Below are positions 15,819 through 50,155 of a stretch of 64,000 bases of DNA, piece by piece (the first letter of the stretch is position 1; the number at the start of each line of letters is the position of its first letter). The translations under genes and the position numbers were made by a program. The stretch is from Selaginella moellendorffii (lineage: Eukaryota > Plantae > Lycopodiophyta), in the NCBI RefSeq assembly GCF_000143415.4, contig NW_003314366.1, forward strand, positions 524,132 to 588,131. The letters run 5' to 3'. The notes under the pieces were generated by a model that worked only from the letters and a program-made list of their open reading frames with translations, ran no database searches and was not told the origin of the DNA.

Positions 15819-15819
15819 A

Positions 15820-18821: not shown

Positions 18822-18921
18822 NNNNNNNNNNNNNNNNNNNNNNNNNNNNNNNNNNNNNNNNNNNNNNNNNNNNNNNNNNNNNNNNNNNNNNNNNNNNNNN
18901 NNNNNNNNNNNNNNNNNNNNN
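18822..18921. other. Assembly gap (100 N)
   Basis: Run of N. Confidence 1.
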
Positions 18922-21131
18922 GAACTAAAATTTTACTATAAATAAAATTTTAAAAGATGTAATTTCATTTTTAAATATAACAAATAAGTTACACATACTT
19001 TTGACCTTTATAGATATATTTGATAATATACCTTAATAAATAAAAAGTTAAATTATATACTATTAAATAGTAATACTGAAATATAAAAAGTGTTAAGAAA
19101 GTTACTTTTGTTTTAGTGTAATAAATAATACTAAAAACTTTAGAAAAAATATACTCTTTATTAACTTTTTATTCTAAGTGTAATATAACTATTTATATTT
19201 AAATTTTTAATTTGTTTTTAGTTTTATTATCCTACACATATATTATACATTACTGCCAACTAGTGACTTAAGAGAAATCATTAATTCAATATTCCTAGAT
19301 TAGAATTTTAATATGGCTAATTTTAATCTAGGGCTATGGGTGGGGTTTCATATGTCCCCCCCAAAATTTATCCTAGTGCCTGACATCCGTAGAACAAATT
19401 AAAAACTAATAAAATAATTTCATTTTTAAAATGGTAATTATTATTTATAAAAGTAGCTGAGTTGGCAAAAAAAACATTAATGATCTGGAATTTTAAAGGG
19501 GGTTTTAAGTATGGGGATAGGTGCAGGACATATGTAATGCAGACTCCTAGGATCGCTCAAAAGGACCCCAAGTTTCTAGTGCATCCCTGCCTTGATCCTG
19601 GATTCCCTTCTCATTGCCAAGGTCTTTGGAGACCTATGATGATAGTCTAGTGATCCAGCCCAGCTTCCATAAATACAAAGCTAGTGTCACTTCAATCCCC
19701 CATGTTGTGCATACCAAAGGATCAAAGTGTTCTAGAACACCATACTATGGTGAAAATGCTATTTTTCTATGTTTGTTCTTACTATGTTATAATGATCTTT
19801 GCAGGATAATAGAGGCAAACTAGCAATCTCTTGGTTATAACTTTTGATATGACCTAGCCATTTGCAATGAGAATTCATGTCATTGAAGTTGAGAGCAATG
19901 CTGTGGTGATCAAAATCATGGATGTGTAGCTTTGGAGGAATTCTTTGACCTGCTAAAGTATAAATTACAATAGCTTTTTCAGTTTGGAAGCTTCAATCTA
20001 ATCATATTTCAGTATTAGTAGCCAGATAATAAAAAGAATAGAAAAGTTCAACTCATGATCATTGGTAATATGGTGATTTCTTTATGCTCTTCTCACTTGT
20101 TCTCAACAACACCTAGATCAACTACATTGCCACTTTGCAAAGAATTCTGATGCGTCATTTCTATCTTCAAATCTGTAAAAGGATTATACTCAAGCAAAGG
20201 TGCATTGTTGCTAGATTGGATTGCTCATTTGAAGTGTCTTTAAACTGGCTAGACTTGCATTATAAGCTTGAGAATAGATGAGTAAAGTTCAAGGAGCCCT
20301 AATTCGGTTTGGAGATGCAATATGCAATTCATTTAAGTCAAGTGACTGCTAATTAGACAAATTGCTGGAAATCCCTTATGAAGTTTTCTCCAGTATAACA
20401 CTCTAGAACTTACAAGCAATCCAAGATGTTTGTCTCATGTATGGGAGCAATAAATCAAGCCCAATGATGCCAGTGTAATTGATGTCATCTTCTCAGAGTT
20501 TTGCTAATTATAGCAGTAAACAAAAACCACATGGTTGAGCCTTTGAGAAATATTCCACTATAAGAATATTCAAGGGTGGAGGGATATTCTAGGGTATATT
20601 TCCCTCACTTGTTAGGGTTTATTGAGTTTAAATATGTTATCACTCCAAACATCTAGCAAGTTCCATTGAGAAGGATTGTTTCTAGCCAATCCTTCTCAAT
20701 AATTTCTTACTTCTTCAGGCTTGGAGTGATTTTTGGAGGAATTTATATAAATCCTTGCTTTTTAGCAATGTAGCATGTGGTAAAGAAGTCTCTAGGATAT
20801 CAAGCTGTATTATAAAGGATTCCAAATATACATTGGTTGGAAGCATGGTTGACTATATGAAACATTAGTTTCATCTTTTAAGCTATATTGGTCCTTATTT
20901 TGCATCTAACTCCATACTTTGTTGGTTGATGGAGCACTTTTATCCTCACATTAGGCTACCAATATGCTTAAATTTCATTTGGCTCTATTTTATATAGTTT
21001 CTATTCCCAGATATTCTAGATATATTCACTATATCTCTCTTACTTTTAGCATTGGAAATGCATAGGCTTTGAAATCCCAGCTATAGACAAATATTTTGTT
21101 ACAAAGTGTCTTAAGAGGCCTTTGAGAGGGT

Positions 21132-21231
21132 NNNNNNNNNNNNNNNNNNNNNNNNNNNNNNNNNNNNNNNNNNNNNNNNNNNNNNNNNNNNNNNNNNNNN
21201 NNNNNNNNNNNNNNNNNNNNNNNNNNNNNNN
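21132..21231. other. Assembly gap (100 N)
   Basis: Run of N. Confidence 1.
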
Positions 21232-28559: not shown

Positions 28560-30479
28560 CTTCTTTGACAATAAGCATTTTCCTTTATGACATTGATTTA
28601 TTATATTGCAACATAAGTAATTTATCCCCCAAGGGATATATTTAACCTCCTTTTTATCCTAACAAGAAGACTCGAGAAGTTAGCTTTCACCATTCCAACT
28701 ATTTACTCCCAACCTTTGTTTAGTTGTTTCATAGTCATCAAGCCCTACAACTCATTGTTGGTGCTTCTACATCTCCATCAATATTCAGCCACAGCACTTA
28801 AATCATATGCCTTCAAACTTAGGCTATGCCAATCCCATTTTCATTGGGATTTCTTTGTCAAAAGGTTCTCATGAACCAACCAACTTTGACTTCAAGGCAT
28901 CACACCTTGGCACATTTAGTGTCTCCATACTATTAGCTCTATAAGCCTACCCTTATGACACTTCCCACTAGTGTTTAAGTCTTTGTTAAAACAATAGTAG
29001 TCATTTCTTAAGTCAACTATTAGTTAGCATTACAATACAGTGTTCATACGCAACTTCTCGCCAAAGTTGCTATCTTCCGTAAACACCTTTTCACAACTTT
29101 AGTATGGCACTTTTTGCCATCAATGAGATACCCACTATTCTTATACTTGGATATTATGATCCTCTTAGCCCTTCATAAGGTACAACACATCTCTATCCAA
29201 ATGGGATTCCTCCAAGCCTTTGGGACCATCCCTTGACTTTATTGAGTTATCTATTGTTGATTTAACATCTTATAAGGTTTTATCCTCTTGGCTACTTTTG
29301 AGGTGCTGCCACACTTAAATACAACTCATTCATAAGGACCATTTTTGTAAATGTTACTCCAACACTTGATTATCTTTGGTTTTATATGAGCTACTTTTGC
29401 CCTTTAGAACCATGATGAGAACACTGATTCATCCTTTGAGCACACCCCCCAACACCTTGGGTTGTTTTGGCCTTTATTAAAGGTAGCCCTAACTACCATT
29501 TTAAGGGTATATATCATAACCTTCCTTAATCATATTAGCATTTCCTGGCCAAACTAGCTCCACTAAAGTCTTCCCCCTACTATACTTTTGGAGCTCACTA
29601 AACCCCCCAGGGTCTGGGAGATGATCGCTTTGGGCTTTCACCCTCAGACTCGAACTTGGAATTAAACTTAGACTCAGACTCAGACTTGGATTTGGACTCG
29701 GACTTGGACTCGGACTCAGACTCAGTCTCATACTTGGACTCGGACTTGGACTCGGACTCAGACTCGGACTTGGATTTGGACTTGGAGTCGGACTTAGTCT
29801 CGATCTTTGTCTCGATCTTAGTCTTAGTCTTGGTCTTGATCTCGGACCTGGTCTTAGTTCCTATCTTGAACTTGACCTCATGCTCCATCTTGGATTCCAT
29901 CTCGAAATCCTTCTTGGACTCCATCTCAGACTCCTCCTCAGGTTCTATCTTGGACTCCTTCTCGAACTTCATTTCGGGTCCATTTCGGACTCCATCTTGG
30001 ACTCCATCTCGGGTCCATCTTGGACTCCTTCTTAGACTCCATCTTGGGTCCATCTTGGACTCTATCTCTGGTCCAACTTAGACTCCCTCTTGGACTCTAT
30101 CTCGGACTTCATCTCAGGTCCATTTCAAATTCCATCCCAGACTCCATCTCAGGTCCAACTCAGACTCCATCTCAGGTCCAACTCAGACTCCATCTCGAGC
30201 TCCACCTTAGACTCCATCTTGAATTCCTTCTCGGACTCGGTCCTAACACTTTCACGTGTCATGTGTTGGTCCTTTTTTGTTCTATTTCTAGAGGCTTGTT
30301 TATTGATCACTTCATGTTCTTTCCTCGAGCACTTCTTTAGGAGTTCCACTCCCACTCTCAACTTTTCAAGTCAAATCTTTTAATCCAAATGTGTTATGCT
30401 TGTTTGGCTTTTGCTTCGGCCACTACCATATGGCACCCTCTCGGCTCCACTTTGGGGCTTTAAGGATTTATGTTTCACA
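28560..30479 (-). mobile_element. Family-B fragment: degenerate internal region plus 5' part of an LTR with hexamer array
   Basis: 28560-29520 homologous to 42130-42600 plus 50156-50650; LTR start TGTGAAACA (rc) at 30479; array 29640-30240. Confidence 0.65.
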
Positions 30480-32559: not shown

Positions 32560-33710
32560 TGTAAGGAACCAACTCGCCGAGGTGTCGTAGGCTAAGGGAA
32601 CCCCGAAAGCATGACCAAAATGACAAAGAGTTCATCGGATGGGACCAAGTCAAAGATCGAGTCCAAGACCGACTCTAGGACCGAGTTCGAGATAGAGTCC
32701 GGAATCGAGTCCAAGACCGACTCGGGGACCGAGTTCGAGTCCGAGTTCAAGACCGAGTTCGAGACGGAGTCCGAGATCCGAAATCGGGTCCGAGACTGAG
32801 TCCGAAGTCGAGTCCGAGGTCGGGCCCGAGATCGGGTCCGAGATCGAGTCCGCGATCGAGTCCGAGACCGAATCCGAAGTCGGATCCGAAATCGGATCCG
32901 AGATCGAGCCAGAGACTAAGTCCAAATACTAATACGGGTCAAGGGGTGAAAGCCCAAAGCGTGCGTCCCCCAGGGGGGGGGGGGGGCTGCAGGGGGTTCC
33001 AAAAGTATAGTAGGGATAGTGAGGTCCAGGAACCAGTTTTGAAGGGACTCTCCAGTTGGGCTTCCAAACCGACTTGAGGTTGGGACTGGGACTAAGGGGC
33101 CTTGGGTGGGAGTGAGCGTGGACTTGGCTGGTGCCGGAGGGGCCATCCAAGGAAGTGCTCAAGAGCAGCTCCCACTCCCGAAAGGGAAACCGATTGCGGT
33201 GCTCCCGGCTCATGTGGAGTGGTGCCCCACTTGAGTACCATGCGGCTCATTGGTCCTCGCCCTTCCTAGGGGCTTGGGCCTTCCTTCGGGATGGAAGTGG
33301 GGGGCGAGAGGTACCCATACCGGGCCGTTAGGCCACGGTGTTTCGCCCCGGCGTCCCGAAGCAAGTGTTGCACTCAAGACTTGGGATTTAGAGGGTCCCA
33401 TGATCAAGTCTTGTGGTACCAAGGGATGTTAGGAACCTGGAAGTTTGGTGTGCTTGGCTGCTTGTGCTTGCGGGGAGTGTAGCCGAACCTTAAGTCCAGT
33501 CTAACCCGGGGAGGGGGATTGGGAGTGATTTGGGAATCCGTGGAAGGATGGCTAACACTCCGTTGCTCGTGCAGTGAGTAGCTGAAACCAAGTAGGAGCT
33601 GGTACCATAGGCGAGAACCTTGGCAAGGGAACTTAGCAAAAGCCAAGGCAGTGTTGGACGGATAGACGAGGTAAGCTGGCAAATTGGAAAGGAAAAATTT
33701 GTGGCTTATA
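32560..33710 (+). repeat. 5' LTR of copy 1
   Basis: TGTAAGG...GGCTTATA (terminal CA changed to TA); about five transitions and a poly-G length difference versus the 3' LTR, by eye. Confidence 0.95.
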
Positions 33711-33736
33711 ATTTGGTATCGGAGCCTTTTCCTCAG
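33671..33736 (+). other. Candidate 66-bp intron spanning the U5 end and the PBS
   Basis: GAG|GTAAGC donor; CCTTTTCCTCAG acceptor; same donor, acceptor and length in copy 2 (48982-49047). Confidence 0.55.
33714..33726 (+). promoter_or_regulatory. Primer-binding site, tRNA-iMet-like
   Basis: TGGTATCGGAGCC 3 nt after the LTR (plant iMet PBS TGGTATCAGAGC with one A>G, G:U compatible). Confidence 0.85.
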
Positions 33737-36700
33737 TTCTAGCGAAGGATAGAGGCGGATTGCTGGGAGATGGCAAGGGCAGGGCGTAAGCGAACCCAGG
33801 CGGAGACGGAACCTCCGCCAGAGCTGGAGCCTCCGGTCGAACAAGAGGCTATGGATGAGGAATCCTTGCATGAGGAGGACTCCAGTGAGGAAACCTCCAA
33901 ACAGGAGTCCGGTGGCGAGGTTCGGTCGTCCAAGGCTCGATTGAACGTGCTAGAAGGACAGTTGGCACAGACCAATGCCCTGCTGGAAACTCTCGTACGC
34001 AAGCTAAAGCGTGACGAGAGGCGGAAGAAAAAGAAAAAGACTGCGGATGCTGGCAGCGCAGAAGGTGCGGATCTTTCGGCCGGGACTGAGGCAAAACCAG
34101 ACAAGGTCGAACAGACCGAAGTGGAATCAGTCCCTCAGGCAGTTCCCAAGTACAAACCAAAGCCCCCACCGGTCTTCAAGGGAGTGAATGACTATAAGGT
34201 GGTGGAGGATTGGTTTTACGATATGGAGGACTACTTCCGAGCGTTGCGGTTACCAAGCTCGGAGAAGGTCCCATGTGCAAAACCATACTTGGCAGATAAT
34301 GCCAAGTCTTGGTGGAGAACAACGGAGGCCAACGAAGGACCGGTGGTCACTTGGGACATGATGAAGGCGAGGATCCGCGCAACATATGTTCCTCCGAATG
34401 CCACTCTGCATCTGAGGGATGAACTGAGTAGGCTGAAACAGACAGGAACCATCCAGGAATATGTGAATGGGTTCATGGCAAAGAGGATACTTGTCACGGA
34501 CATGGGGGATATGGATGCGTTCCATGCCTTCATATCAGGTTTGCAAACCTGGGCTCGCGGCGAGGTGATGAGGTGGAACCCGACCAACTACAAGGAAGCG
34601 TTGGATGCGGCCATCAAGGTGCATTTCAACGATAACCTGCGAAAGGGGAACACGACGGGGTCGGGATCCACATTTAGCAAAGGGGCCAAACCAAGGGGAA
34701 CGTATAGCAAGGGGAAATTCAAAAGGAGTTTCTCTAAGAATGAGTCCTCGGGGTTCCGGAAAGGCAAATCCGGTGGCCAGCGAGCGAGTACGTGGGGGAG
34801 TCAAGCGAAAAAGGACAAACCCACGGATAAGAAGGTCAAGTCGTATAGCAGCGTGGGAAACAACGTATGCTACAACTGCGGCGAAGCGGGACACTTCTCG
34901 AGGGAATGTCCCTACCCGAAGAAGGCCAGAGCCAATATGGCCATCAAGTCGGGTGAAGTCCAAACTGAGGTATGTGATCCAGTCCCTAACTCAAAGTTAC
35001 TCATTACACAAGCAACTTTGGTAGAGAGTCGTTCGCGACATCTACTAGCCCTCCGAGGGAAGCTCGGAGGTAGCTTTGTTAAAATCCTTATTGACACGGG
35101 TGCTTCGGATAATTTTGTGGCTGCAGACATAGTCCGGCAAGCCGGACTAACGGTGTAGCGGCTAGGCGAACCAAGGACTATAGAGTTTGTTCAGGGTAGC
35201 CAAAGCACCGATGAGGTACTTCGACAAGCGAGAGTCGAAGTGGGGACATGGAAAGTGGACATGGATTTCACCGTCTTGGATATGGCGGGATTTGACGTGA
35301 TCTTCGGAATGGATTGGTTTAATCGGTTCGTGGTAGCCCTGCATGGACAAGGTAGGAACCTTGTGGTATTGGCGAATGCCCAAGGAAGAAGATCTAGGGT
35401 GGAGGCCCAGGATCTAAAGGTAGGGCAAAGCAAGGCCAACGAGTCATGCTTGAACCTGGTGTCCACGAGAGGACAACTCACTAAAGGAACTAAGGCAGCC
35501 TTTTTGTGCTTACTCTCGGTGAAGAGTGATAAAAAGACAAGAACGGAAGAAGTGCCTTTAGTGATCCAGCGAGTGTTGGACCAATTCCAGGATACCATGC
35601 CGGAGGAGCTACCGGCGGGGTTGCCCCCCGCACGACCGATAGAACATAAGATTGAGCTTGTCGAGGGCGCTGAGGCGGTGGTTCGTCCCCCCTATCGTTT
35701 GAACGAAAAAGAACTCAAGGAGCTCAAGTGCCAACTAGAGGAGTTGGTGGGCAAAGGGTATGTTAGGTTGAGCAAGTCGCCGTATGGGGCGCCGGTATTA
35801 TTTGTGAAAAAGAAAGATGGATCTATGCGCATGTGCATAGATTACCGGTTGCTCAACAAGTATACCAAGAAGAACAAGTACCCGTTGCCAAGGATTGAGG
35901 ACCTGTTCGATAGGTTGGGAAAGGCAAAATACTTCTCGAGGATTGACCTAAGGTCAGGATACTACCAGATCAGGGTAGCCGAGGAAGATGTCGAGAAGAC
36001 AACCTGTCGAACGAGGTATGGGAGCTTTGAGTTTTTGGTGATGCCCTTTGGGCTGTGCAATGCGCCGGCAACGTTTTCGGCGTTGATGAACCACATCTTT
36101 GTACCCTATCTGGATCACTTTGTGGTCATCTATATTGACGACATCCTGATCTATAGCGAGACGCTAGAGGAGCATGCCGAACACTTGGCGAAGGTGTTTG
36201 AGAAACTAAGGGAACATAAACTGTATGCTAAAGAGAGCAAATGTGACTTTGCTCAGCAAGAGGTAAAGTTTCTCGGGCATGTGGTGGGCCAGGACGAGCT
36301 CAAGGTGGACCCGGAGAAGGTCCAAGCGATCCAGGAATGGGAGCGACCATCAAATGTACATGAGTTGAGGGCGTTCTTGGGGCTATGCAACTACTATCGA
36401 AAGTTTATCAGACACTATTCGAGAGTAGCCCTGCCCTTAACTGATCGAACGGGAAAAGGGAAGATGGTATGGACAGCGGAAAGCGAGGCGGCATTCGTCC
36501 ACCTCAAAGGGAAGTTGAGGAAGGCTCCGGTGTTGGCATTACCGGACTTTGGTAAGGACTTTGAGGTAGACACGGATGCTTCGGACTTTGCGTTAGGCGC
36601 AGTTTTGAAGCAAGACAACCATCCAGTAGCGTTCTTCTCGAAGAAGCTGGACAAGGCTCAACGGAAGTGGCCTGCCCACGAGAAGGAATTGTTTGCGGTG

Positions 36701-37643
36701 GTCAAGGCGCTCAAGGAGTGGCGACACTACCTTGGGAGACACTTCAAGGTTTACACGGACAATGTGGCAACGAAACACTTCTTGTCACAACCCGACCTAA
36801 GAGGGAAACAAGGTCGGTGGGCCAATGCCTTGGCCGAGTTTGATTGCGAGATTCTGTACAAGCCTGGGAAGAGCAACATCGTGGCAGATGCGCTAAGTCG
36901 AAAAGTGAGCTTGAGGTTGGCGATCTCCAGCGCAACAGCAACCTTCTGGGACGATGTGCGGACAGCATATGAGAACGATGGTCTAGCACAAGAAGTGTTG
37001 TTGAGGAATCTGGAGGCACGGGAAGCTCACCAGAGAGGTGAGCCGCCAACGGAAGAGAAAACGGGCTATGCGGAACACAATGGACTCATTTATTACAAGC
37101 AAACGAGGGTGTATGTTCCAGAAGGTGGACTAAGGAAGGTAGCCTTAGAAGAGTGTCATGACGGACCTCTTGCGGGACACGGCGGAGTGCCCAAGACGAT
37201 GGGCTTACTCAAGAGGAAGTACCATTGGCCAGATATGGCTAAGGACGTCCAAGACTATGTAAAGATATGTCCAACATGTCAGCAGGTCAAAGCCGTGACT
37301 AAGGCTAGTGGGGGCTTGTTGCAAAGCATCCCAATTCCAGATCGTCCGTGGAAATGTCTCACGATGGACTTCATCACGGGACTACCCCCAAGCGAGGGGT
37401 TCGATGCGATATTCGTGGTGGTGGATCGATTTTCGAAGATGGCACATTTCATACCCACCACAACGGAGGTGGATGCGGAAGGTGTGGCGAAACTGTTCTT
37501 CGAACAAGTGGTTTGAGTGCGGGGAAGGCCAGAGGAGATTATCTCAGATCGAGATAAGATCTTCACTAGTAGGTTCTGGAGGACCCTCCTGGAACAGTAT
37601 CGCACCAAGTTGAAATTCAGCACAGCCTATCACCCACAGACAG

Positions 37644-37690
37644 GTATGGGGTATTAAGTCAAGTTTGGTGGTCCTAACACTTCTTGACAG
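37644..37690 (+). other. 47-bp GT-AG intron in the integrase core
   Basis: Removal restores YHPQT-DGQTERVN; CTAAC branch motif; in-frame TAA if retained. Confidence 0.88.
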
Positions 37691-38108
37691 ACGGACAAAC
37701 GGAAAGGGTGAATAGGCAGCTGGAGGATTATTTGCGATGCTATGTCTCGGGAGACCAGACCGATTGGGTAAGTCATTTGGGACTTGCGGAAATGTGTTAT
37801 AACAACTCACCACATTCGAGTATCGGGGTGAGTCCATGGGAAGTCATCAATGGGCGAGCTATTGAAGGTCCTGTGGAACTCGGCGTGGCCGAGTATCATG
37901 GAGAGTTACCCGCAGTGGAGGCATTCACGGCGGAAAGACTCAACATTTGGAATCTAGTGAGGGATTCCTTGGAACGGGCTCAACAAAGGCAAACCAAGTA
38001 CGCGAACCTAAAGCGCCGGGACGTAGAGTTCCAAGCTGGGGAGAAGGTGTGGCTGAACACCAAGAACCTTAGGCTACCAAGTGGGATCAGCCGAAAGTTG
38101 ACCCAAAG

Positions 38109-38160
38109 GTAAAAATGCATGTAATCCTGTAAATGAATTGATCTTGAGTTCCTTAAGCAG
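38109..38160 (+). other. 52-bp GT-AG intron before the integrase GPY/F motif
   Basis: Removal restores KLTQR-FAGPYEI; AG|GTAAAA...TTAAGCAG|G. Confidence 0.88.
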
Positions 38161-38579
38161 GTTCGCGGGGCCTTACGAGATTGAGGCACGAATCGGTAAA
38201 GTGGCTTACCGACTCCGACTTCCTCGAGAGATGGGGAAGATGCACCCAGTGTTCCATGTGAACTTACTCAAGCCGTACTTTGAGGATCCGCTTCGCAAGG
38301 ACCAAGTAAGACCTTTACCTGAGGTTATCCAAGGGGAAGAGGAATACGAAGTCGAGGCCATCCTCAATGCGCGCAAGAGCAAGCGACAAGGACGCGAGGT
38401 GAGAGAGTTCCATGTGAAGTGGAAAGGATTTCCACACTGCGAAGCAACATGGGAACCGGAGGAGAACCTAGCGAACGCGCGAGATCTAGTGGAGGAATTT
38501 CTGCATGGCAGAACTCTATGTACTTATGCAAAGTTCAATTAAAAATATCAATTTGCAAAGTTGAGCAAGTGGCATATGT

Positions 38580-38930
38580 TGGGACCCGAAGGCGCGCCAA
38601 AGGTGAGCTAATTAGCATGGGTTAGCTAGGTCGACCAGGCGTAGGGAGCTACGCCCGACTCCCTGCGGGGATGTCGAAACCGTAGACGTATTCTATGGAG
38701 GTTGGGTTCGAGTCCCAACCCCCTAGTAAAGCAAGGCTGGGTTCAAGTCCCGACCTCATACTAGGGCGTGGTGAGGGGAGGAGTATAGGGACACCTATAT
38801 TCCGTTGTCATGAGCTCTTGGCCGGGGAGGCTAACTTAGGCACACCGCTAAGTGGGGGGATGCCCCCGGAGACATGGTCAACAAGTCGTAGGATAAAAAA
38901 GAGACGTTCGATGTGGGCATCGAACTTCTT
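38580..38930 (+). other. Hairpin-dense 3' non-coding region with two tRNA T-arm / B-box-like motifs
   Basis: GGTTGGG-TTCGAGT-CCCAACC (38700-38720), GGCTGGG-TTCAAGT-CCCGACC (38735-38755), GGCGTAG/CTACGCC, GGAGTATAGG/CCTATATTCC and GTTCGATG/CATCGAAC stems. Confidence 0.55.
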
Positions 38931-38932
38931 CT

Positions 38933-38946
38933 ATGGGTGGTGGAGT
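38933..38946 (+). promoter_or_regulatory. Polypurine tract
   Basis: ATGGGTGGTGGAGT directly before the 3' LTR. Confidence 0.75.
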
Positions 38947-40094
38947 TGTAAGGAACCAACTCGCCGAGGTGTCGTAGGCTAAGGGAACCCCGAAAGCATG
39001 ACCAAAATGACAAAGAGTTCATCGGATGGGACCAAGTCAAAGATCGAGTCCAAGACCGACTCTAGGACCGAGTTCGAGATAGAGTCCGGAATCGAGTCCA
39101 AGACCGACTCGGGGACCGAGTTCGAGTCCGAGTTCAAGACCGAGTTCGAGACGGAGTCCGAGATCCGAAATCGGGTCCGAGACCGAGTCCGAAGTCGAGT
39201 CCGAGGTCGGGCCCGAGATCGGGTCCGAGATCGAGTCCACGATCGAGTCCGAGACCGAATCCGAAGTCGGATCCGAAATCGGATCCGAGATCGAGCCAGA
39301 GACTAAGTCCAAATACTAATACGGGTCAAGGGGTGAAAGCCCAAAGCGTGCGTCCCCCAGGGGGGGGGGGCTGCAGGGGGTTCCAAAAGTATAGTAGGGA
39401 TAGTGAGGTCCAGGAACCAGTTTTGAAGGGACTCTCCAGTTGGGCTTCCAAACCGACTTGAGGTTGGGACTGGGACTAAGGGGCCTTGGGTGGGAGTGAG
39501 CGTGGACTTGGCTGGTGCCGGAGGGGCCATCCAAGGAAGTGCTCAAGAGCAGCTCCCACTCCCGAAAGGGAAACCGATTGCGGTGCTCCCGGCTCATGTG
39601 GAGTGGTGCCCCACTTGAGTACCATGCGGCTCATTGGTCCTCGCCCTTCCTAGGGGCTTGGGCCTTCCTTCGGGATGGAAGTGGGGGGCGAGAGGTACCC
39701 ATACCGGGCCGTTAGGCCACGGTGTTTCGCCCCGGCGTCCCGAAGCAAGTGTTGCACTCAAGACTTGGGATTTAGAGGGTCCCATGATCAAGTCTTGTGG
39801 TACCAAGGGATGTTAGGAACCTGGAAGCTTGGTGTGCTTGGCTGCTTGTGCTTGCGGGGAGTGTAGCCGAACCTTAAGTCCAGTCTAACCCGGGGAGGGG
39901 GATTGGGAGTGATTTGGGAATCCGTGGAAGGATGGCTAACACTCCGTTGCTCGTGCAGTGAGTAGCTGAAACCAAGTAGGAGCTGGTACCATAGGCGAGA
40001 ACCTTGGCAAGGGAACTTAGCAAAAGCCAAGGCAGTGTTGGACGGATAGACAAGGTAAGCTGGCAAATTGGAAAGGAAAAATTTGTGGCTTACA
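38947..40094 (+). repeat. 3' LTR of copy 1
   Basis: TGTAAGG...GGCTTACA, 1148 bp. Confidence 0.95.
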
Positions 40095-42624
40095 GTGGGG
40101 ACCAAAAAAGGAATATTGGGGAAGGCTACTCCTCATGTTTGTGGTCATCCTAAGGATGCTAAAGAGTGGATCTGGGATGACCACTCATGGGCAAATGGCC
40201 CAATCTTTGAGAGACAGGATTGTGATGTAGGTGGTGTTGGATCATTGATATGACAAAGGTGAATAGACATGGCATTAGTGTAACAGACTGATAAATTGGT
40301 GGTACCTTTGAGTGTCAGTCATGGGATTGGACATGTGGAGCACTTGGACCAAGTACAAATGTTGAGTGGCATGGATGCCATTCTTGGGGCTAGCAAGCCC
40401 CAAGTCCTAAATAGGACTTATAGAGGTTGTGAATGAGACTTTTCTAAGTGGTTAAAGGTGTGGTTAAGTGACTAAAGTAGAATGGAAAATTAATCACTTA
40501 CAATTTGGTCTAGGCTTGATATTAGAAGGATTGGGTTACAATGTTTAATTTTTTTCTAGGGAACTTTGCTATTACTTCTTGAGTAGCTCGGTGTTGGATT
40601 AGTTTCAAATTTGGTCAGAAAAAAAGTGCCATAAGCTTGTCCATATTACAAATAAAGTTGGTGGTGTTAAGTGTCATAAATCTCTACTGGTGAGTATGAT
40701 ATTTATGTTATATTTTGTCGAATTGAGTTGGCACTTGATACTCATTTAAATCTTTATAGTAATGATATAGGTGTTGCTCATGGTATTACTTTATTGATGA
40801 TCAAGTCATTATGATATTTATATCATATCTATGTGATCATGAGTAATGTGTTTATGAAGTTGCTTGGTTAAACAATAATCAACCCCAAAGTGCTTGATGG
40901 TGAAGTTAATTTACCTGTAAGTAGTAGCATTATAGTAACTTTGATTGAGTTTTCAGAAATGATCCATTATGCTAAGTTAGTGATGGTACCTTGGTTCCTT
41001 GAGTGTTTGCTTATTGAGGTTTTAGAAAATGTTGTAGCATTCATTTGTTATAATTTGATGTTTTATTTTTAACATTTGGAGTAGATTTTTGGATGGAAAA
41101 GGTGTGTAGTTGAGACATTAGAATTGTTAACACTTGTGTTAGTGAAAGTGGCATTACTATGTCGAGTGATGAGGAATATTCTTTGGAACTTGGTTTTTTA
41201 TATTATTTTTTTTGTTAATGTTTTGGTACCACATTGGATATTGAAGGTGATTGAAGAATAGAGTTAGTGCAATATGGATATCCAAAGATATGGTCTTCGT
41301 GTTAAAGTTTTTGATATTCATTAGCATACAGATATTGATGTTAGATAATGGATATGTAGGCATGATATTCAATGTTTAGGCATACTAATAAGTCATAATA
41401 ATTTATGTTGAGATGAACCGATGTGAAGTTGTAAATAGAAAGAAGTTAGTTGAGTCTTGAGAAATTGTATTTCTAGACTAAGAGTCATTCTTTCTCTAGG
41501 ATGGAAGATTTTCCATAATTTTTTTAAAGTTTTTCCAATGGCTAATCTATTAATCATTTTGCCCAAAACCCATTTTATTTCATGAGCCTTTACAAACTAA
41601 TGAAGGGGTTGACTTTGGCTAGCTTAATACAAAAGACTAAATTTTCCATTCTACTTTAGTCACTTAACCACACCTCCAGCCATTTACAAAAGTTTTACTC
41701 ACAACCTTTATAAGTCTTATTTTGGACTTAGGGACATACTAACCCTGAGAATGGCATCTATGCCACTCAACCTTTGCACTTGGTCCAAGTGCTCCACATG
41801 TCCGATCCCATGACTGACACCCAAAGGTACTATTGACATATGCTAAGGCTATGCCCATTCACCTATGTCACACCAGTGATCCAACACCACCTACATCATA
41901 GTCCCATTTCTCAAAGACTAGACCATCTATCCATGAGTGATCATCCTAAATCCCCTTAAATAGAAAAACTTCTCTCAATCTTCACAACCTTAAACATTAA
42001 ATAGCACCTCCTATCCATTATTTGTTAAGGACTTAGTCCTTTGGGCTTTATCTAATGCCCTCATGATCCCAAACACCACTCCCTAGTGTTTTAGAGTGTT
42101 TATATGTCCCAACGATAACTTTATTTGATAGTGAGCATTTCCCTTTATAACATTAAATTACTATATCTCAACATAAGCAATTTATCCTCCGAAAGGGTAT
42201 ACCTAACCTCTTTATCCTAATAACAAGTCTTGGGTAATTAACTTCTACCAATCTAATTGATTATTTTGCACCTTTTATTTAATGGCCTCATATTCGTTAA
42301 ATCCTACAACTCATTACTAGTACTTCCACACCTTTATCATTATTTGGGTCACCACACTCTAATCACATGCCTTTCAACTTAGGCTATGCCATTTTCATTT
42401 CTATTAGGATTCCTTTGGTAAAGGGTTCTTATGAACCCACTCACTTGACCTCAAGGCATCACATCTTGGCATATTTGGTATCACCACACTATCGGCTCTA
42501 CAAGCCTACCTTTACAACACTTCCCACTTGTGTTTAGGTCTTTGCCAAGACCAAAGCAGTTATTTCTCATGCTAACTATTAGTTAATACTGCACTATAGT
42601 GTAGGGTATACTATACCCTAAACC

Positions 42625-43772
42625 TGTAAGCCACAAATTTTTCCTTTCCAATTTGCCAGCTTACCTCGCCTATCTGTCCAACACCGCCTTGGCTTTTGCT
42701 AAGTTCCCTTGCCAAGGTTCTCGCCTATGGTACCAGCTCCTACTTGGTCTCAGCTACTCACTGCACGAGCAACGGAGTGTTAGCCATCCTTCCACGGATT
42801 CCCAAATCACTCCCAATCCCCCTCCCCGGGTTAGACTGGACTTAAGGTTCGGCTACACTCCCCGCAAGCACAAGCAGCCAAGCACACCAAGCTTCCAGGT
42901 TCCTAACATCCTTTGGTACCACAAGACTTGATCATGGGACCCTCTAAATCCCAAGTCTTGAGTGCAACACTTGCTTCGGGACGCCGGGGCGAAACACCGT
43001 GGCCTAACGGCCCGGTATGGGTACCTCTCGCCCCCCACTTCCATCCCGAAGGAAGGCCCAAGCCCCCAGGAAGGGCGAGGACCAATGAGCCGCATGGTAC
43101 TCAAGTGGGGCACCACTCCACTTGAGCCGGGAGCACCGCAATCGGTTTCCCTTTCGGGAGTGGGAGCTGCTCTTGAGCACTTCCTTGGATGGCCCCTCCG
43201 GCACCAACCAAGTCCATGTTCACTCCCACCCAAGGCCCCTCGGTCCCAGTCCCAACCTCATGTCAGTTTGGGAGCCCCACTGGAGAGTCCCTTCTAAACT
43301 GGTTCCTGGACCTCACTATCCCTACTATACTTTTGGAACCCCCTGCAGCCCCCCCCCCCTGGGAGACGCACGCTTTGGGCTTTCACCCCTTGACCCGTAT
43401 TAGTATTTGGACTTAGTCTCTGGCTCGATCTCGGACCCGATTTCGGATCCGACTTCGGATTCGGGTTCGGACTCGATCTCGGACTCGATCTCGGACCCGA
43501 TCTCGGACCCGACCTCGGACTCGACCTCGGACTCGGTCTCGGACCCGATTTCGGATCTCGGACTCCGTCTCGAACTCGGTCTCGAACTCGGACTCGAACT
43601 CGGTCCCCGAGTCGGTCTCGGACTCGATTCCGGACTCGATCTCGAACTCGGTCCTAGAGTCGGTCTTGGACTCGATCTTCGACTTGGTCCCATCCGATGA
43701 ACTCTTTGTCATTTTGGTCATTCTTTCGGGGTTCCTTTAGCCTACGACACCTCGGCGAGTTGGTTCCTTACA
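42625..43772 (-). repeat. 3' LTR of copy 2
   Basis: TG...CA termini; near-identical to 49008-50155. Confidence 0.95.
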
Positions 43773-44556
43773 ACTCCACCACCCATAGAAGAAGTTCGAT
43801 GCCCACATCGAACGTCTCGTTTTATCCTACGACTTGTTGACCATGTCTCCGGGGGCATCCCCCCACTTAGCGGTGTGCCTAAGTTAGCCTCCCCGGCCAA
43901 GAGCCCATGACAACGGAATATAGGTGTCCCTATACTCCTCCCCTCACCACGCCCTAGTATGGGGTCGGGACTTGAACCCAGCTTTGCTTTACTAGGGGGT
44001 TGGGACTCAAACCCAACCTTCGTAGAATACGTCTACGGATTCGACATCCCCGCAGGGAGTCGGGCGTAGCTCCCTACGCCTGGTCGACCTAGCTAACCCA
44101 TGCTAATTAGCTTACCTTCGGCGCGCCTTCGGGTCCCAACATATGCCATTGCTCAACTTCTCAAATTGATATTTTTAATTGAACTTTGCATAAGTACATA
44201 GAGTTCTGCCATGCAGAAATTCCTCCACTAGATCTCGCGCGTTCGCTAGGTTCTCCTCCGGTTCCCATGTTGCTTCGCAGTGTGGAAATCCTTTCCACTT
44301 CACATGGAACTCTCTCACCTCGCGTCCGTGTCGCTTGCTCTTGCGCGCATTGAGGATGGCCTCGACTTCGTATTCCTCTTCCCCTTGGATAACCTCAGGT
44401 AAAGGTCTTACTTGGTCCTTGCGAAGCGGATCCTCAAAATACGGCTTGAGTAAGTTCACGTGGAACACGGGATGCATCTTCCCCATCTCTCGAGGAAGTC
44501 GGAGACGGTAAGCCACTTTACCGATTCGAGCCTCAATCTCGTAAGGCCCCGCGAAC

Positions 44557-44608
44557 CTGCTTAAGGAACTCAAGATCAATTCATTTACAGGAATACATGC
44601 ATTTTTAC
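44557..44608 (-). other. 52-bp integrase intron, copy 2
   Basis: Same position and length as 38109-38160; one substitution. Confidence 0.88.
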
Positions 44609-45026
44609 CTTTGGGTCAACTTCCGGCTGATCCCACTTGGTAGCCTGAGGTTCTTGGTGTTCAGCCACACCTTCTCCCCAGCTTGGAACTCCACATCTCG
44701 ACGCTTTTGGTTCGCGTACTTAGTTTGCCTTTGTTGAGCCCGTTCCAAGGAATCCCTCACTAGATTCCAAATGTTGAGTCTTTCCGCCGTGAATGCCTCC
44801 ACTGCGGGTAACTCTCCATGATACTCGGCCACGCCGAGTTCCACAGGACCTTCAATAGCTCGCCCATTGATGACTTCCCATGGACTCACCCCGATGCTCG
44901 AATGTGGTGAGTTGTTATAACACATTTCCGCAAGTCCCAAATGACTTACCCAGTCGGTCTGGTCTCCCGAGACATAGCACCGCAAATAATCCTCCAGCTG
45001 CCTATTCACCCTTTCCGTTTGTCCGT

Positions 45027-45073
45027 CTGTCAAGAAGTGTTAGTGCCATCAATCTTGACTCAATACCCATTAC
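45027..45073 (-). other. 47-bp integrase intron, copy 2
   Basis: Same position and length as 37644-37690; 7 substitutions but GTA, CTAAC and the 3' end are unchanged. Confidence 0.88.
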
Positions 45074-48000
45074 CTGTCTGTGGGTGATAGGCCGTGCTGA
45101 ATTTCAACTTGGTGCGATATTGTTCTAAGAGTGTCCTCCAGAACCTATTGGTGAAGATCTTATCTCGATCTGAGATAATCTCTTCCGGCCTTCCCCGCAC
45201 TCGAACCACTTGTTCGAAGAACAGCTTTGCCACACCTTCCGCATCCACATCCGTTGTGGTGGGTATGAAATGTGCCATCTTTGAAAATCGGTCCACCACC
45301 ACGAATATCGCATCGAACCCCTCGCTTGGGGGTAGTCCCGTGATGAAGTCCATCGTGAGACATTTCCACGGACGATCTGGAATGGGGATGCTTTGCAACA
45401 AGCCCCCACTAGCCTTCGTCACGGCTTTGACCTGCTGACATGTTGGACATGTCTTTACATAGTCTTGGACGTCCTTAGCCATATCTGGCCAGTGATACTT
45501 CCTTTTTGAGTAAGCCCATCGTCTTGGGCACTCCGCCGTGTCCCGCGAGAGGTCCGTCATGACACTCTTCCAAGGCTACTTTCCTTAGTTCCCCTTCTGG
45601 AACATACACCCTCGTTTGCTTGTAATATATGAGTTCGTTGCGTTCCGCATAGCCCGTTTTCTCTTCCGTTGGCAGCTCACCTCTCTGGTGAGCTTCCCGC
45701 GCCTCCAGATTCCTCAGCAACACTTCTTGTGCTAGACCATCACTCTCGTATGCGGTCCGCACATCGTCCCAAAAGGTTGCTGTCGCGCTAGATATCGCCA
45801 ACTTCAAGCTCGCTTTTCGACTTAGCGCATCTGCCACGATGTTGCTCTTCCCAGGCTTGTACAGGATCTCGCAATCAAACTCGGCCAAAGCATTGGCCCA
45901 CCGACCTTGTTTTCCCCTTAGGTCGGGCTGTGACAAGAAGTGTTTCGTTGCCACATTGTCCGTGTAAACCTTGAAGTGTCTCCCAAGGTAGTGTCGCCAC
46001 TCCTTGAGCGCCTTGACCACCGCAAACAATTCCTTCTCGTGGGCAGGCCACTTCCGTTGAGCCTTGTCCAGCTTCTTCGAGAAGAACGCTACTGGATGGT
46101 TGTCTTGCTTCAAAACTGCGCCCAACGCAAAGTCCGAAGCATCCGTGTCTACCTCAAAGTCCTTACCAAAGTCTGGTAATGCCAACACCGGAGCCTTCCT
46201 CAACTTCCCTTTGAGGTGGACGAATGCCACCTCGCATTCCGCCGTCCATACCATCTTCCCTTTTCCTGTTTGGTCCGTTAAGGGCAGGGCTACTCTCGAA
46301 TAGTGTCTGATAAACTTTCGATAGTAGTTGCATAGCCCCAGGAACGCCCTCAACTCATGTACATTCGATGGTCGTTCCCATTCCTGGATCGCTTGGACCT
46401 TCTCCGGGTCCACCTTGAGCCCGTCCTGGCCCACCACATGCCCGAGAAACTTTACCTCTTGTTGAGCAAAGTCACATTTGCTCTCTTTAGCATACAGTTT
46501 GTGTTCCCTTAGTTTCTCAAACACCTTCGCCAAGTGTTCGGCATGCTCCTCTAGCGTCTCGCTATAGATCAGGATGTCGTCAATATAGACGACCACGAAG
46601 CGATCCAGATAGGGTACAAAGATGTGGTTCATCAACGCCAAAAACGTTGCCGGCGCATTGCACAGCCCAAAGGGCATCACCAAAAACTCAAAGCTCCCAT
46701 ACCTCGTTCGACAGGTTGTCTTCTCGACATCTTCCTCAGCTACCCTGATCTGGTAGTATCCTGACCTTAGGTCAATCCTCGAGAAGTATTTTGCTTTTCC
46801 CAACCTATCGAACAGGTCCTCGATCCTTGGCAAAGGGTACTTGTTCTTCTTGGTATACTTGTTGAGCAACCAGTAGTCTATGCACATGCGCATAGATCCA
46901 TCTTTCTTTTTCACAAATAGCACCGGCGCCCCATACGGCGACTTGCTCAACCTAACATACCCTTTGTCCACCAACTCCTCTAGTTGGCTCTTGAGCTCCT
47001 TGAGTTCTTTTTCGTTCAATCGATAGGGTGGACGAACCACCGCCTCAGCACCCTCGACCAGCTCAATCTTATGTTCTATAGGTCGTGCGGGGGGCAACCC
47101 CGCCGGTAGCTCCTCCGGCATCGTATCCTAGAATTGGTCCAGCACCTGCTGGATCACTAAAGGTACTTCTTCCGTTCTTGTCTTTTTGTCACTCTTCACC
47201 GAGAGTAAGCACAAAAAGGCTGCCTTAGTTCCTTTAGTGAGTTGTCCTCTCGTGGACACCAGGTTTAAGCATGACTCTTTGGCCTTGCTTTGCCCTACCT
47301 TTAGATCCTGGGCCTCCACCCTAGATCTTCTTCCTTGGGCATTCGCCAATACCACAAGGTTCCTACCTTGTCCATGCAGGGCTACCACGAACCGATTAAA
47401 CCAATCCATTCCAAAGATCACGTCAAATCCCGCCATGTCCAAGACGGTGAAATCCATGTCCACTTTCCATGTCCCCACTTCGACTCTCGCTTGTCGAAGT
47501 ACCTCATCGGTGCTTTGGCTACCTTGAACAAACTCTATAGTCCTTGGTTCGCCTAGCCGCTGCACCGTTAGTCCGGCTTGCCGGACTATGTCTGCAGCCA
47601 CAAAATTATCCGAAGCACCCGTGTCAATAAGGATTTTAACAAAGCTACCTCCGAGCTTCCCTCGGAGGGCTAGTAGATGTCGCGAACGACTCTCTACCAA
47701 AGTTGCTCGTGTAATGAGTAACTTTGAGTTAGGGACTGGATCACATACCTCAGTTTGGACTTCACCCGACTTGATGGCCATATTGGCTCTGGCCTTTTTC
47801 GGGTAGGGACATTCCCTCGAGAAGTGTCCCGCTTCGCCGCAGTTGTAGCATACGTTGTTGCCCACGCTGCTATACGACTTGACCTTCTTATCCGTGGGTT
47901 TGTCTTTTTTCGCTTGATTTCCCCATGTACTCGCTCGCTGGCCACCGGATTTGCCTTTCCGGAACCCCGAGGACTCATTCTTAGAGAAACTCTTCTTGAA

Positions 48001-49007
48001 TTTCCCCTTGCTATATGTTCCCCTCGGTTTGGCCCCTTTGTGAAACGTGGATCCCGACCCCGTCGTGTTCCCCTTTCGCAGGTTATCGTTGAAATGCACC
48101 TTGATGGCCGCATCCAACGCTTCCTTGTAGTTGGTCGGGTTCCAGCGCATCACCTCACCGCGAGCCCAGGTTTGCAAACCTGATATAAAGGCATGGAACG
48201 CATCCATATCCCCCATGTCCGTGACAAGTATCCTCTTTGCCATGAACCCATTCACATATTCCTGGATGGTTCCAGTTTGCTTCAGCCTACTCAACTCATC
48301 TCTCAGATGCAGAGTGGCATTCGGAGGAACGTATGTCGCACGGATCCTCGCCTTCATCATGTCCCAGGTGGCCACCGGTCCTTCGTTGGCCTCCGTTGTT
48401 CTCCACCAAGACTTGGCATTATCTGCCAAGTATGGTTTTGCACATGGGACCTTCTCCGAGCTCGGTAACCGCAACGCTCGGAAGTAGTCCTCCATATCGT
48501 AAAACCAATCCTCCACAACCTTATAGTCGTTCACTCCCTTGAACACCGGTGGGGGCTTTGGTTTGTACTTGGGAACTGCCTGAGGGACTGATTCCACTTC
48601 GGTCTGTTCGACCTTGTCTGGTTTTGCCTCAGTCCCTGCCGAAGGGTCCGCACCTTCTGCGCTGCCAGCATCCGCAGTCTTTCGCTTTTTCTTTCGCTTC
48701 TCGTCACGCTTTAACTTGCGTACGAGAGTCTCCAGCAGGGCATTGGTCTGTGCCAACTGTCCTTCTAGCACGTTCAATCGAGCCTTGGACGACCGAACCT
48801 CGCCACCGGACTCCTGTTTGGAAGTTTCCTCACTGGAGTCCTCCTCATGCAAGGATTCCTCATCCATAGCCTCTTGTTCAACCGGAGGCTCCAGCTCCGG
48901 CGGAGGTTCCGTCTCCGCCTGGGTTCGCTTACGCCCTGCCCTTGCCATCTCCCAGCAATCCGCCTCTATCCTTCGGTAGAACTGAGATAAAGGCTCCGAT
49001 ACCAAAT

Positions 49008-50155
49008 TGTAAGCCACAAATTTTTCCTTTCCAATTTGCCAGCTTACCTCGCCTATCTGTCCAACACCGCCTTGGCTTTTGCTAAGTTCCCTTGCCAAGG
49101 TTCTCGCCTATGGTACCAGCTCCTACTTGGTCTCAGCTACTCACTGCACGAGCAACGGAGTGTTAGCCACCATCCACGGATTCCCAAATCACTCCCAATC
49201 CCCCTCCCCGGGTTAGACTGGACTTAAGGTTCGGCTACACTCCCCGCAAGCACAAGCAGCCAAGCACACCAAGCTTCCAGGTTCCTAACATCCTTTGGTA
49301 CCACAAGACTTGATCATGGGACCCTCTAAATCCCAAGTCTTGAGTGCAATACTTGCTTCGGGACGCCGGGGCGAAACACCGTGGCCTAACGGCCCGGTAT
49401 GGGTACCTCTCGCCCCCCACTTCCATCCCGAAGGAAGGCCCAAGCCCCCAGGAAGGGCGAGGACCAATGAGCCGCATGGTACTCAAGTGGGGCACCACTC
49501 CACTTGAGCCGGGAGCACCGCAATCGGTTTCCCTTTCGGGAGTGGGAGCTGCTCTTGAGCACTTCCTTGGATGGCCCCTCCGGCACCAACCAAGTCCATG
49601 CTCACTCCCACCCAAGGCCCCTCGGTCCCAGTCCCAACCTCAAGTCAGTTTGGGAGCCCCACTGGAGAGTCCCTTCTAAACTGGTTCCTGGACCTCACTA
49701 TCCCTACTATACTTTTGGAACCCCCTGCAGCCCCCCCCCCCCTGGGAGACGCACGCTTTGGGCTTTCACCCCTTGACCCGTATTAGTATTTGGACTTAGT
49801 CTCTGGCTCGATCTCGGACCCGATTTCGGATCCGACTTCGGATTCGGGTTCGGACTCGATCTCGGACTCGATCTCGGACCCGATCTCGGACCCGACCTCG
49901 GACTCGACCTCGGACTCGGTCTCGGACCCGATTTCGGATCTCGGACTCCGTCTCGAACTCGGTCTCGAACTCGGACTCGAACTCGGTCCCCGAGTCGGTC
50001 TCGGACTCGATTCCGGACTCGATCTCGAACTCGGTCCTAGAGTCGGTCTTGGACTCGATCTTCGACTTGGTCCCATCCGATGAACTCTTTGTCATTTTGG
50101 TCATTTTTTCGGGGTTCCTTTAGCCTACGACACCTCGGCGAGTTGGTTCCTTACA
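49008..50155 (-). repeat. 5' LTR of copy 2
   Basis: Adjacent to PBS (rc ggctccgatacca). Confidence 0.95.

What the first reader, a model, noticed from the sequence alone, without database searches (positions are those of the whole stretch)
33671..33736. Candidate intron that deletes the primer-binding site: a splice switch separating mRNA from genomic RNA
Seen: a strong donor (AG|GTAAGC) 40 nt before the LTR end and a pyrimidine-rich CAG acceptor 10 nt after the PBS define a 66-bp segment, in the size range of other introns here and identical in length in copy 2 (48982-49047); the LTR-terminal CTTAC could be the branch point. Established: LTR reverse transcription needs the PBS. Inference: spliced RNA makes full integrase but cannot be primed, while unspliced RNA replicates but encodes no active integrase. 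This would explain how the integrase introns survive retrotransposition.
Basis: inference. Interest (0 to 1): 0.85.

Follow-up and report, generated by a model that had tools for sequence, protein, structure and literature searches.

The report
Retrotransposon intron removes its priming site
A jumping gene matching a described spikemoss family carries four short introns, and one public assembly that is probably RNA shows one of them cutting out the primer-binding site, which likely lets only unspliced RNA be copied back into DNA and would explain how introns inside its integrase gene survive.

Summary
The 66-nt segment 33671-33736 is a spliced intron. One public run (X1, RNA by guess) has a contig that skips exactly these 66 nt (GT..AG). 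Other RNA-like runs retain it, and a DNA-like run shows no skip. The intron removes the last 40 nt of the LTR and the primer-binding site (PBS).

The element matches SM1-Galahad, a Ty3/gypsy chromovirus of Selaginella moellendorffii, published as a truncated ORF plus two small ORFs with no mention of introns. Integrase exons are under purifying selection.

Correction: RNA with all four introns removed encodes only Gag; integrase needs the 157-nt intron kept. The donor pairs with the LTR end in a predicted hairpin that also covers the branch point. An older family keeps the hairpin without that GT, so the donor may be a by-product.

Best reading (about 0.55): the PBS intron is a splice gate that keeps spliced RNA out of reverse transcription. 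Coupling of the splices on single molecules is untested. The scan noted a similar LTR/PBS-spanning intron in another genome, without RNA data.

The parts
32560..40094 (+). Copy 1 of a Ty3/gypsy chromovirus matching SM1-Galahad; 7535 bp, 5-bp target duplication GTGGG; broken by in-frame stops at 35156 and 37514
32560..33710 (+). 5' LTR (1151 bp) with poly-G tract; 5 substitutions against the 3' LTR
33671..33736 (+). Intron I1 (66 nt, GT..AG): last 40 nt of the LTR, 3-nt spacer, PBS, pyrimidine tract; skipped in X1, retained in X3 and X8
33671..33709 (+). Predicted U5-terminal hairpin: donor GUAAGC pairs with the LTR end, which holds the branch-like motif
   Evidence: prediction; not probed
33714..33725 (+). 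Primer-binding site, tRNA-Met type
   Evidence: motif recalled; PMC3350952 describes a 13-bp tRNA-Met PBS for this family
33770..34969 (+). gag, 400 codons from the first ATG after the intron, with CCHC knuckle
34970..35126 (+). Intron I2 (157 nt, alternative): coding when retained (holds the protease DTG motif); when spliced the frame stops two codons later, giving Gag only
   Evidence: skipped in X1 and X3, retained in X5
35127..37643 (+). Rest of protease, RT, RNase H, N-terminal and core integrase up to the HPQT motif
37644..37690 (+). Intron I3 (47 nt) splitting the integrase HPQT/DGQTE motif; in-frame stop when retained; diverges at the synonymous rate
   Evidence: skipped in X1 and in 1 raw read of X17; retained in X3 and X11
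37691..38108 (+). Integrase exon with the last catalytic Glu motif; pN/pS 0.03 between copies
38109..38160 (+). Intron I4 (52 nt) just before the GPY motif
   Evidence: skipped in X1; retained in X5 and X11
38161..38542 (+). Last exon: GPY/SH3-like region and chromodomain with aromatic cage residues
38933..38945 (+). Polypurine tract
38947..40094 (+). 3' LTR; carries the same donor and hairpin but no PBS or acceptor behind it
42625..50155 (-). Copy 2, 7531 bp, 96.6% identical; one in-frame stop and one frameshift; no matching target duplication
48982..49047 (-). I1 in copy 2
47592..47748 (-). I2 in copy 2
45027..45073 (-). I3 in copy 2
44557..44608 (-). I4 in copy 2

Best explanation
The 66-nt segment is an alternatively spliced intron of a four-intron chromovirus, and its removal deletes the primer-binding site and the LTR end, which likely acts as a gate that keeps spliced RNA from being reverse transcribed. 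Inferred scheme: (1) fully unspliced RNA, probably held that way by a predicted hairpin that hides both donor and branch point, keeps the PBS and serves as genome; (2) RNA that enters splicing loses the PBS and the integrase introns, and if it also loses the 157-nt intron it makes Gag only; (3) a rarer form that keeps the 157-nt intron would make Gag-Pol with full integrase. New copies therefore would inherit all four introns. Shown: the four splices, retention in other runs, intron-bearing DNA, selection on the integrase exons. Inferred: the hairpin's role, form (3), and the coupling of the PBS splice to the integrase splices.
For: Exact 66-nt GT..AG skip in a contig of X1, beside exact skips of 157, 47 and 52 nt. 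Bin depths in X1 equal what the spliced contigs alone give at all four sites, so that run shows no form with the PBS kept and integrase introns removed. Where I1 is retained (X3), I3 is retained too. The DNA-like run X11 laid 368 contigs with 0 of the 4 joints; one contig runs unbroken over I3 and I4. The two copies differ at about 12% of synonymous sites, yet both are young (5 substitutions between LTRs) and both keep all four introns; pN/pS is 0.03-0.09 in every coding block, including both exons behind the integrase introns. The published consensus from a family of hundreds of copies stops at the same place (3885 bp) and has the same two small ORFs, so retention is family-wide. In 22 of 23 related integrases the I3 motif is continuous, and in 21 of 23 the I4 motif. 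Donor-to-LTR-end pairs have predicted probability 0.87-0.99 in a 380-nt context.
Against: The PBS splice was seen in 1 of 4 RNA-like contig runs laid (of 14 listed), in one contig at depth 7.9, and X1's RNA status is a guess. X3 and X8 show only retention, which could also be pre-mRNA, read-through or DNA. Contigs of a multi-copy family are not phased, so coupling is not shown. X3 shows I2 spliced while I1 is retained, so splicing is not simply all-or-none in that run. No contig shows the Gag-Pol form (I2 kept, I3 and I4 removed). An older LTR family keeps the hairpin but has T at the homologous donor +1 in 6 of 6 ends, so the donor may be a by-product of a hairpin that must mirror the CTTACA end. 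Hairpin energies are not unusual against shuffles (z -0.5 to -1.6).
Confidence: 0.55

Rival explanations
1. The intron is real but incidental to intron survival. The donor exists because a U5 hairpin needed for priming or packaging must mirror the LTR end. Integrase introns survive because genomic RNA is a separate pool (another start site as in BARE1, or selective export and packaging of unspliced RNA).
For: The hairpin is kept with compensatory changes in an older family whose +1 is T. BARE1 keeps its intron through separate start sites (PMC3735527 passages). The spliced contig of X1 begins at 33559, just behind the last of six upstream ATGs, while the unspliced contig of X3 begins at 33036 near a TATA-like motif; contig ends are only a weak hint.
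Against: A working acceptor behind the PBS is not needed by the hairpin, yet it is kept in both copies and used. All six older LTR ends have another AG|GT 6 nt upstream, and one has a pyrimidine-rich TAG behind a PBS remnant. The two mechanisms can also act together.
Confidence: 0.27
2. The U5 donor mainly recruits U1 snRNP to control 3'-end formation in the 5' LTR, or the leader intron mainly boosts export and translation of Gag mRNA; loss of the PBS is a side effect.
For: In foamy viruses a donor inside R suppresses 5'-LTR polyadenylation and RNA structure masks it at the 3' LTR (PMC3694450 passages). EVD uses U1 binding in a similar way (PMC5580714 passages). The donor is present in both LTRs here.
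[quoted passage not shown] This does not explain how obligatory integrase introns persist.
Confidence: 0.12
3. The X1 joints come from a transcribed processed pseudogene or one aberrant, dead copy spliced by chance at cryptic sites, not from the normal life cycle.
For: One run, one contig for I1; X1 contigs are 95-99% alike to copy 1, so they come from another locus or strain; both window copies are broken.
Against: Four exact GT..AG skips. I2 is repeated in a second study (X3) and I3 in a raw read of a third (X17). No such joints in X11. I3 and I4 must be removed for any integrase, and the exons are under purifying selection.
Confidence: 0.06

Closest known systems
SM1-Galahad of Selaginella moellendorffii (Novikov et al. 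2012, PMC3350952)
   Same: 7.5 kb, LTRs over 1 kb with poly-G, tRNA-Met PBS, main ORF 3885 bp/1295 aa ending before the chromodomain, two downstream ORFs of 316 and 309 bp; here 7535 bp, 3885 nt, 318 and 309 nt.
   Different: The paper reads it as a truncated ORF with extra ORFs; 'intron' and 'splic' have 0 hits in its main text. Here the breaks are spliced introns. No sequence of the published consensus was available for direct comparison.
SM2-Galahad (same paper); probably protein P0138
   Same: Sister family; P0138 (1578 aa, against 1577 aa published) is the best or tied-best hit for most pol segments among stored proteins.
   Different: One continuous Gag-Pol ORF with no break at I3 or I4. 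Its LTR/PBS junction could not be fetched, and P0138 = SM2-Galahad is an inference from length and similarity.
EVADE and BARE1 Gag-only splicing (Ty1/copia; PMC5580714, PMC3735527)
   Same: I2 works like them: an alternative intron at the protease gives a frameshift and a stop right behind gag.
   Different: They are copia elements whose Pol comes from unspliced RNA. Here Pol needs two further introns removed, and a leader intron deletes the PBS. Oberlin et al. found no conserved splicing of this kind in Arabidopsis Ty3/gypsy.
Foamy virus major splice donor inside the LTR R region (PMC3694450, PMC7828637)
   Same: A donor inside the LTR, upstream of the PBS, so that spliced mRNAs including pol mRNA would lack the PBS (follows from the layout); RNA structure masks the donor in one context.
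   Different: Foamy introns are long and skip gag; pol has no internal introns. Here a 66-nt intron removes only the U5 end and PBS from an otherwise full-length RNA.
Ogre (Ty3/gypsy, Tat lineage; described in PMC6317226)
   Same: Gypsy element whose full polyprotein needs an intron removed from part of its transcripts.
   Different: One intron between two ORFs; no PBS-deleting intron described in the passages read.
Penelope and Chlamys retroelements (PMC8557442)
   Same: They retain introns through retrotransposition; a 5'-UTR intron spans the terminal repeat/body boundary.
   Different: Not LTR elements and no tRNA PBS; the authors call the significance of retention unknown.

Membership tests
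Ty3/gypsy chromovirus | Two LTRs with TG...CA ends, PPT, 5-bp target duplication | tested here: met
   copy-1 5' LTR ends TA by one substitution; copy 2 lacks a matching duplication
Ty3/gypsy chromovirus | Order gag-PR-RT-RH-INT with C-terminal chromodomain | tested here: met
   Pfam
SM1-Galahad | 7.5 kb, LTR over 1 kb with 11-25 nt poly-G | tested here: met
   7535 and 7531 bp; LTR 1148-1151 bp; poly-G 11-14
SM1-Galahad | 3885-bp ORF without chromodomain, then 316- and 309-bp ORFs | tested here: met
   3885 nt to the stop inside I3; ORFs of 318 and 309 nt
SM1-Galahad | Over 80% DNA identity to the published consensus | not testable with these tools
   No sequence in the paper text or in the text of its PDF supplement
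SM1-Galahad | [quoted passage not shown] | tested here: inconclusive
   11 of 12 match to a recalled plant motif; no tRNA gene in the window and no genome held
U2-type spliceosomal intron (I1) | GT..AG ends, branch-like motif, U-rich, host-like size | tested here: met
U2-type spliceosomal intron (I1) | Absent from RNA at exact boundaries, present in DNA | tested here: met
   1 contig of X1 (RNA by guess); no joint in DNA-like X11; raw-read confirmation is lacking
EVADE/BARE1-type Gag-only splicing (I2; works like, not a member: those are copia) | Alternative intron at the protease, stop just behind gag, both forms present | tested here: met
EVADE/BARE1-type Gag-only splicing (I2; works like, not a member: those are copia) | Early termination or polysome loading of the Gag-only RNA | not testable with these tools
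   needs 3' RACE and polysome data
Foamy-type LTR splice donor | Donor inside the LTR upstream of the PBS | tested here: met
   33671 against PBS at 33714
Foamy-type LTR splice donor | Donor in R, upstream of the poly(A) signal | not testable with these tools
   R/U5 boundary unmapped; no common hexamer found
Foamy-type LTR splice donor | Splice skips gag to give a separate Pol mRNA | tested here: not met
   acceptor lies 33 nt before the gag ATG

The most novel reading that the evidence does not exclude
An LTR retrotransposon that has turned splicing into a lock on its own replication. A U5 hairpin decides whether a transcript is spliced; spliced RNA loses the primer site and the integration end and can only be translated, while unspliced RNA can only be copied. 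That lock has let ordinary introns colonise the integrase gene and be inherited through reverse transcription, and similar LTR/PBS-spanning introns noted in other genomes would be the same device.
Probability: 0.4. Interest if true: 0.88.

Novelty: new variant of a known kind. Interest (0 to 1): 0.76.

Why it matters
Introns placed in LTR retrotransposons are normally lost in one cycle, which is the basis of retrotransposition reporters, and a 2025 review says plant LTR elements generally lack introns apart from Ogre and EVADE (PMC12786077 passages). This family keeps two introns inside integrase that must be removed to make the enzyme, so it needs a way to separate mRNA from genomic RNA. A 66-nt intron that deletes the PBS is a compact and directly testable answer. 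It also re-reads a published family: the 'missing' chromodomain of SM1-Galahad is a last exon, and the family's apparent lack of intact copies may partly be an annotation effect. ORF-based screens would class any such family as dead.

Tried and rejected
No whole genome was held, so no genome-wide copy survey was possible. No listed holder is on record as RNA. Raw RNA runs X17-X19 (about 12% of each read) had zero depth over the PBS region, which says nothing either way; their LTR reads come from a fragment inside another transcript. Viral contigs gave no relatives in 3 scans. The one metagenome scan gave a single distant locus, L001 (38%), with no direct repeats and no PBS. Gag homologs were only 28-31% identical, and no protein above 50% identity to the middle integrase exon was listed, so no independent spliced gene model was found. 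The Atlas could not read the sequence. The first pair count used a structure shifted by one column and was redone. Conservation of the donor in the older family B was inconclusive. A gag remnant at 16675-17061 was too decayed to score. Considered and rejected: Tcn1 clade (those lack a tRNA PBS, PMC6317226); an assembly artefact (two independent copies agree); frameshift mutations instead of introns in integrase (exact GT..AG skips and selection on the exons). Ten literature searches found no report of introns in Galahad elements or of a PBS-deleting micro-intron in an LTR retrotransposon. The library lacks most subscription journals and repeat databases, bioRxiv supplements are closed, and figures in the PMC3350952 supplement PDF could not be seen.

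Full report
OBSERVATION. The segment 33671-33736 is 66 nt long, begins AG|GTAAGC 40 nt before the end of a 5' LTR (32560-33710), holds the PBS-like 12-mer at 33714-33725 and ends in CTTTTCCTCAG. A second copy on the minus strand has the same 66 nt at 48982-49047. AGGTAAG occurs once in one LTR plus the internal region. It arises in 82 of 5000 shuffles of the last 100 LTR bases, and an acceptor of this shape in 219 of 5000 shuffles of the 44-nt leader. The segment is 32% U against 14% in its flanks. The copy-1 5' LTR ends CTTATA, so its branch-like motif is CTTAT.

THE ELEMENT. Two copies, 32560-40094 (+) and 42625-50155 (-), are 96.6% identical, and each has LTRs that differ by 5 substitutions. 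Pfam gives gag, zinc knuckle, protease, RT, RNase H, integrase and chromodomain in Ty3/gypsy order. Section 2.1 of PMC3350952 (read whole) describes SM1-Galahad of Selaginella moellendorffii: 7.5 kb, LTRs over 1 kb with poly-G, a tRNA-Met PBS, an ORF of 3885 bp without chromodomain, then ORFs of 316 and 309 bp. The window gives 7535 bp, poly-G of 11-14 nt, 3885 nt from the gag ATG to the stop inside the first integrase intron, and ORFs of 318 and 309 nt. I take this as the same family; a direct sequence comparison was not possible. The paper has no hit for 'intron' or 'splic' in its main text. Its sister SM2-Galahad has one 1577-aa ORF; the stored protein P0138 (1578 aa) is the closest relative in most pol segments and is continuous where this family is broken.

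RNA EVIDENCE. The run search listed 23 runs: 14 RNA by guess, 6 of unknown kind and 3 raw RNA runs. I laid 8 of them on 33000-38900. X1 gave four contigs with four exact GT..AG skips: 66, 157, 47 and 52 nt, at 33671-33736 (I1), 34970-35126 (I2), 37644-37690 (I3) and 38109-38160 (I4). Bin depths in X1 equal what the spliced contigs alone give at every site. One raw read of X17 crosses the I3 joint; X17-X19 have no depth over the PBS. In the second lay, X3, from another study, has an unspliced contig 33036-33841 over I1, a contig that skips I2, extra depth inside I2 (4.37 against 1.0 expected from the spliced contig) and a contig retaining I3. X5 retains I2 and I4. X8 (organism B) retains the PBS. 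X11, of unknown kind but DNA-like in its excess of G>A and C>T changes, laid 368 contigs with none of the four joints. So I1 is spliced in 1 of 4 RNA-like contig runs, I2 in 2 of 4, I3 in 1 of 4 plus one raw read, and I4 in 1 of 4. Contigs show presence only and cannot phase the splices.

WHAT EACH SPLICE DOES. I1 removes the PBS and the last 40 nt of the LTR and leaves the gag ATG (33770) untouched. I2 follows codon 400 and holds the protease DTG motif; behind its acceptor the gag frame reads one codon and a stop, so its removal gives Gag only. I3 splits the HPQT/DGQTE motif, which is continuous in 22 of 23 relatives examined, and brings an in-frame stop before the last catalytic Glu (role of that Glu recalled); I4 sits before the GPY motif, continuous in 21 of 23. 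Integrase therefore needs I2 kept and I3 and I4 removed. No contig showed that form.

SELECTION. Between the copies pS is about 0.12 and pN/pS is 0.05 in gag, 0.09 in PR to integrase core, 0.03 between I3 and I4 and 0.05 behind I4. I3 differs at 7 of 47 sites, the synonymous rate, with its splice signals kept. I4 (1 of 52), I1 (3 of 66) and the synonymous sites of I2 (0 of 42) are more conserved than that rate (P 0.009, 0.03 and 0.004). Two young, well-separated sublineages thus kept a working spliced integrase and all four introns, and the published consensus shows the same breaks. Something must keep spliced RNA out of reverse transcription.

HAIRPIN. Folding puts the donor GUAAGC in a stem with the LTR end GCUUAC, which is also the branch-like motif; pair probabilities are 0.87-0.99 in a 380-nt context. 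Energies are not unusual against shuffles (z -0.5 to -1.6). Six LTR ends of an older family in the window align without gaps over this stretch (one single-base gap) and fold in the same register: 89% of cells paired against at most 45% for slid controls, and two pairs changed on both sides. That is in effect one contrast between two families. All six have T at the homologous +1, but an AG|GT 6 nt upstream, and one has a pyrimidine-rich TAG behind a PBS remnant. The hairpin offers a way to retain the intron, and it equally offers a reason why the donor could have arisen as a by-product.

MECHANISM. Most likely (0.55) the PBS intron is a gate: spliced RNA cannot be primed and also lacks the U5 end, unspliced RNA can be copied but makes no full integrase, and new copies inherit every intron. 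Rivals: separate RNA pools by start site or packaging, with an incidental leader intron (0.27; BARE1 precedent, and the X1 and X3 contigs start at 33559 and 33036, a weak hint of two starts); U1-mediated control of 3' ends or expression (0.12; foamy virus and EVD precedent); a dead-copy or pseudogene artefact (0.06). The first two can act together with the gate.

COMPARISON. I2 works like the Gag-only splice of EVADE and BARE1 (PMC5580714 and PMC3735527, passages) but in a gypsy element. A donor inside the LTR upstream of the PBS is known from foamy viruses (PMC3694450 and PMC7828637, passages). Ogre needs a splice for its full polyprotein (PMC6317226, section 9 whole and passages). Penelope and Chlamys retain a repeat-spanning leader intron (PMC8557442, passages). 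A 2025 review names only Ogre and EVADE as plant exceptions (PMC12786077, passages). Passages of PMC2864245, PMC10309623, PMC2832683, PMC12477816, PMC9142903, PMC13148404 and bioRxiv 2024.04.02.587720 added nothing decisive. Ten searches found no description of these introns; the library is incomplete. The scan's own notes list untested LTR-end introns in other genomes; I did not check them and do not count them as support.

VERDICT. Observation confirmed; interpretation partly supported and corrected. A known family with an undescribed four-intron structure, including an RNA-supported intron that deletes the primer site. New variant of a known kind; interest 0.76.

Noticed in passing
window 34970-35126: I2 shows 0 differences at 42 synonymous sites between the copies (pooled pS 0.12), suggesting an RNA-level constraint on top of protease coding.
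   Followed up: partly
window 38109-38160: I4 is far more conserved (1 of 52) than I3 (7 of 47); it may hold a further signal. Unexplained.
   Followed up: partly
window 42620-42624 and 50156-50160: Copy 2 has near-identical LTRs but no matching 5-bp target duplication (TGAAC against GGTTT), although its flanks match a contiguous repeat at 28561-29506.
   Followed up: partly
window 33004-33036: A TATA-like AAAAGTATAGTA motif, also seen in older family-B LTRs, lies about 30 nt before the point where contigs of X1 (33033) and X3 (33036) begin; weak hint of a start site. Six upstream ATGs lie between it and the donor; the spliced X1 contig begins just behind the last one.
   Followed up: partly
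window 33179-33535 (laid reads): A fragment of this LTR with foreign sequence on both sides is expressed in X5 and X17-X19, so a piece of the LTR sits inside another transcript elsewhere in the genome.
   Followed up: no
window 37822-38133 (laid contigs): X5 has a deep (72x) 1779-nt contig in which a piece of integrase continues into unrelated sequence.
   Followed up: no
window 987, 23177, 40502, 41631, 51096, 52055 (LTR ends): An older, decayed LTR family with hexamer-repeat arrays shares only the TATA region, the polypurine tract and the last 40 nt with the young family; copy 1 is inserted into one of its LTRs.
   Followed up: partly
window 54084-57173 (-): Long ORFs with a DUF7869 hit (E 7e-39), probably a DNA transposon gene; an 859-codon ORF at 60332-62911 (+) has no Pfam hit.
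   Followed up: no
window 6800-9450 (+): Decayed gene with several roughly 55-60 nt intron-like segments that looks like a Mutator/SWIM-type transposase (impression from reading; no Pfam hit on two ORFs).
   Followed up: no
window 16675-17061 (-): Remnant of a third gag, 34% identical to the family's Gag.
   Followed up: partly
window 15101-15819, 18823-18922, about 21131-21231: Three assembly gaps (runs of N); none touches the two element copies.
   Followed up: no
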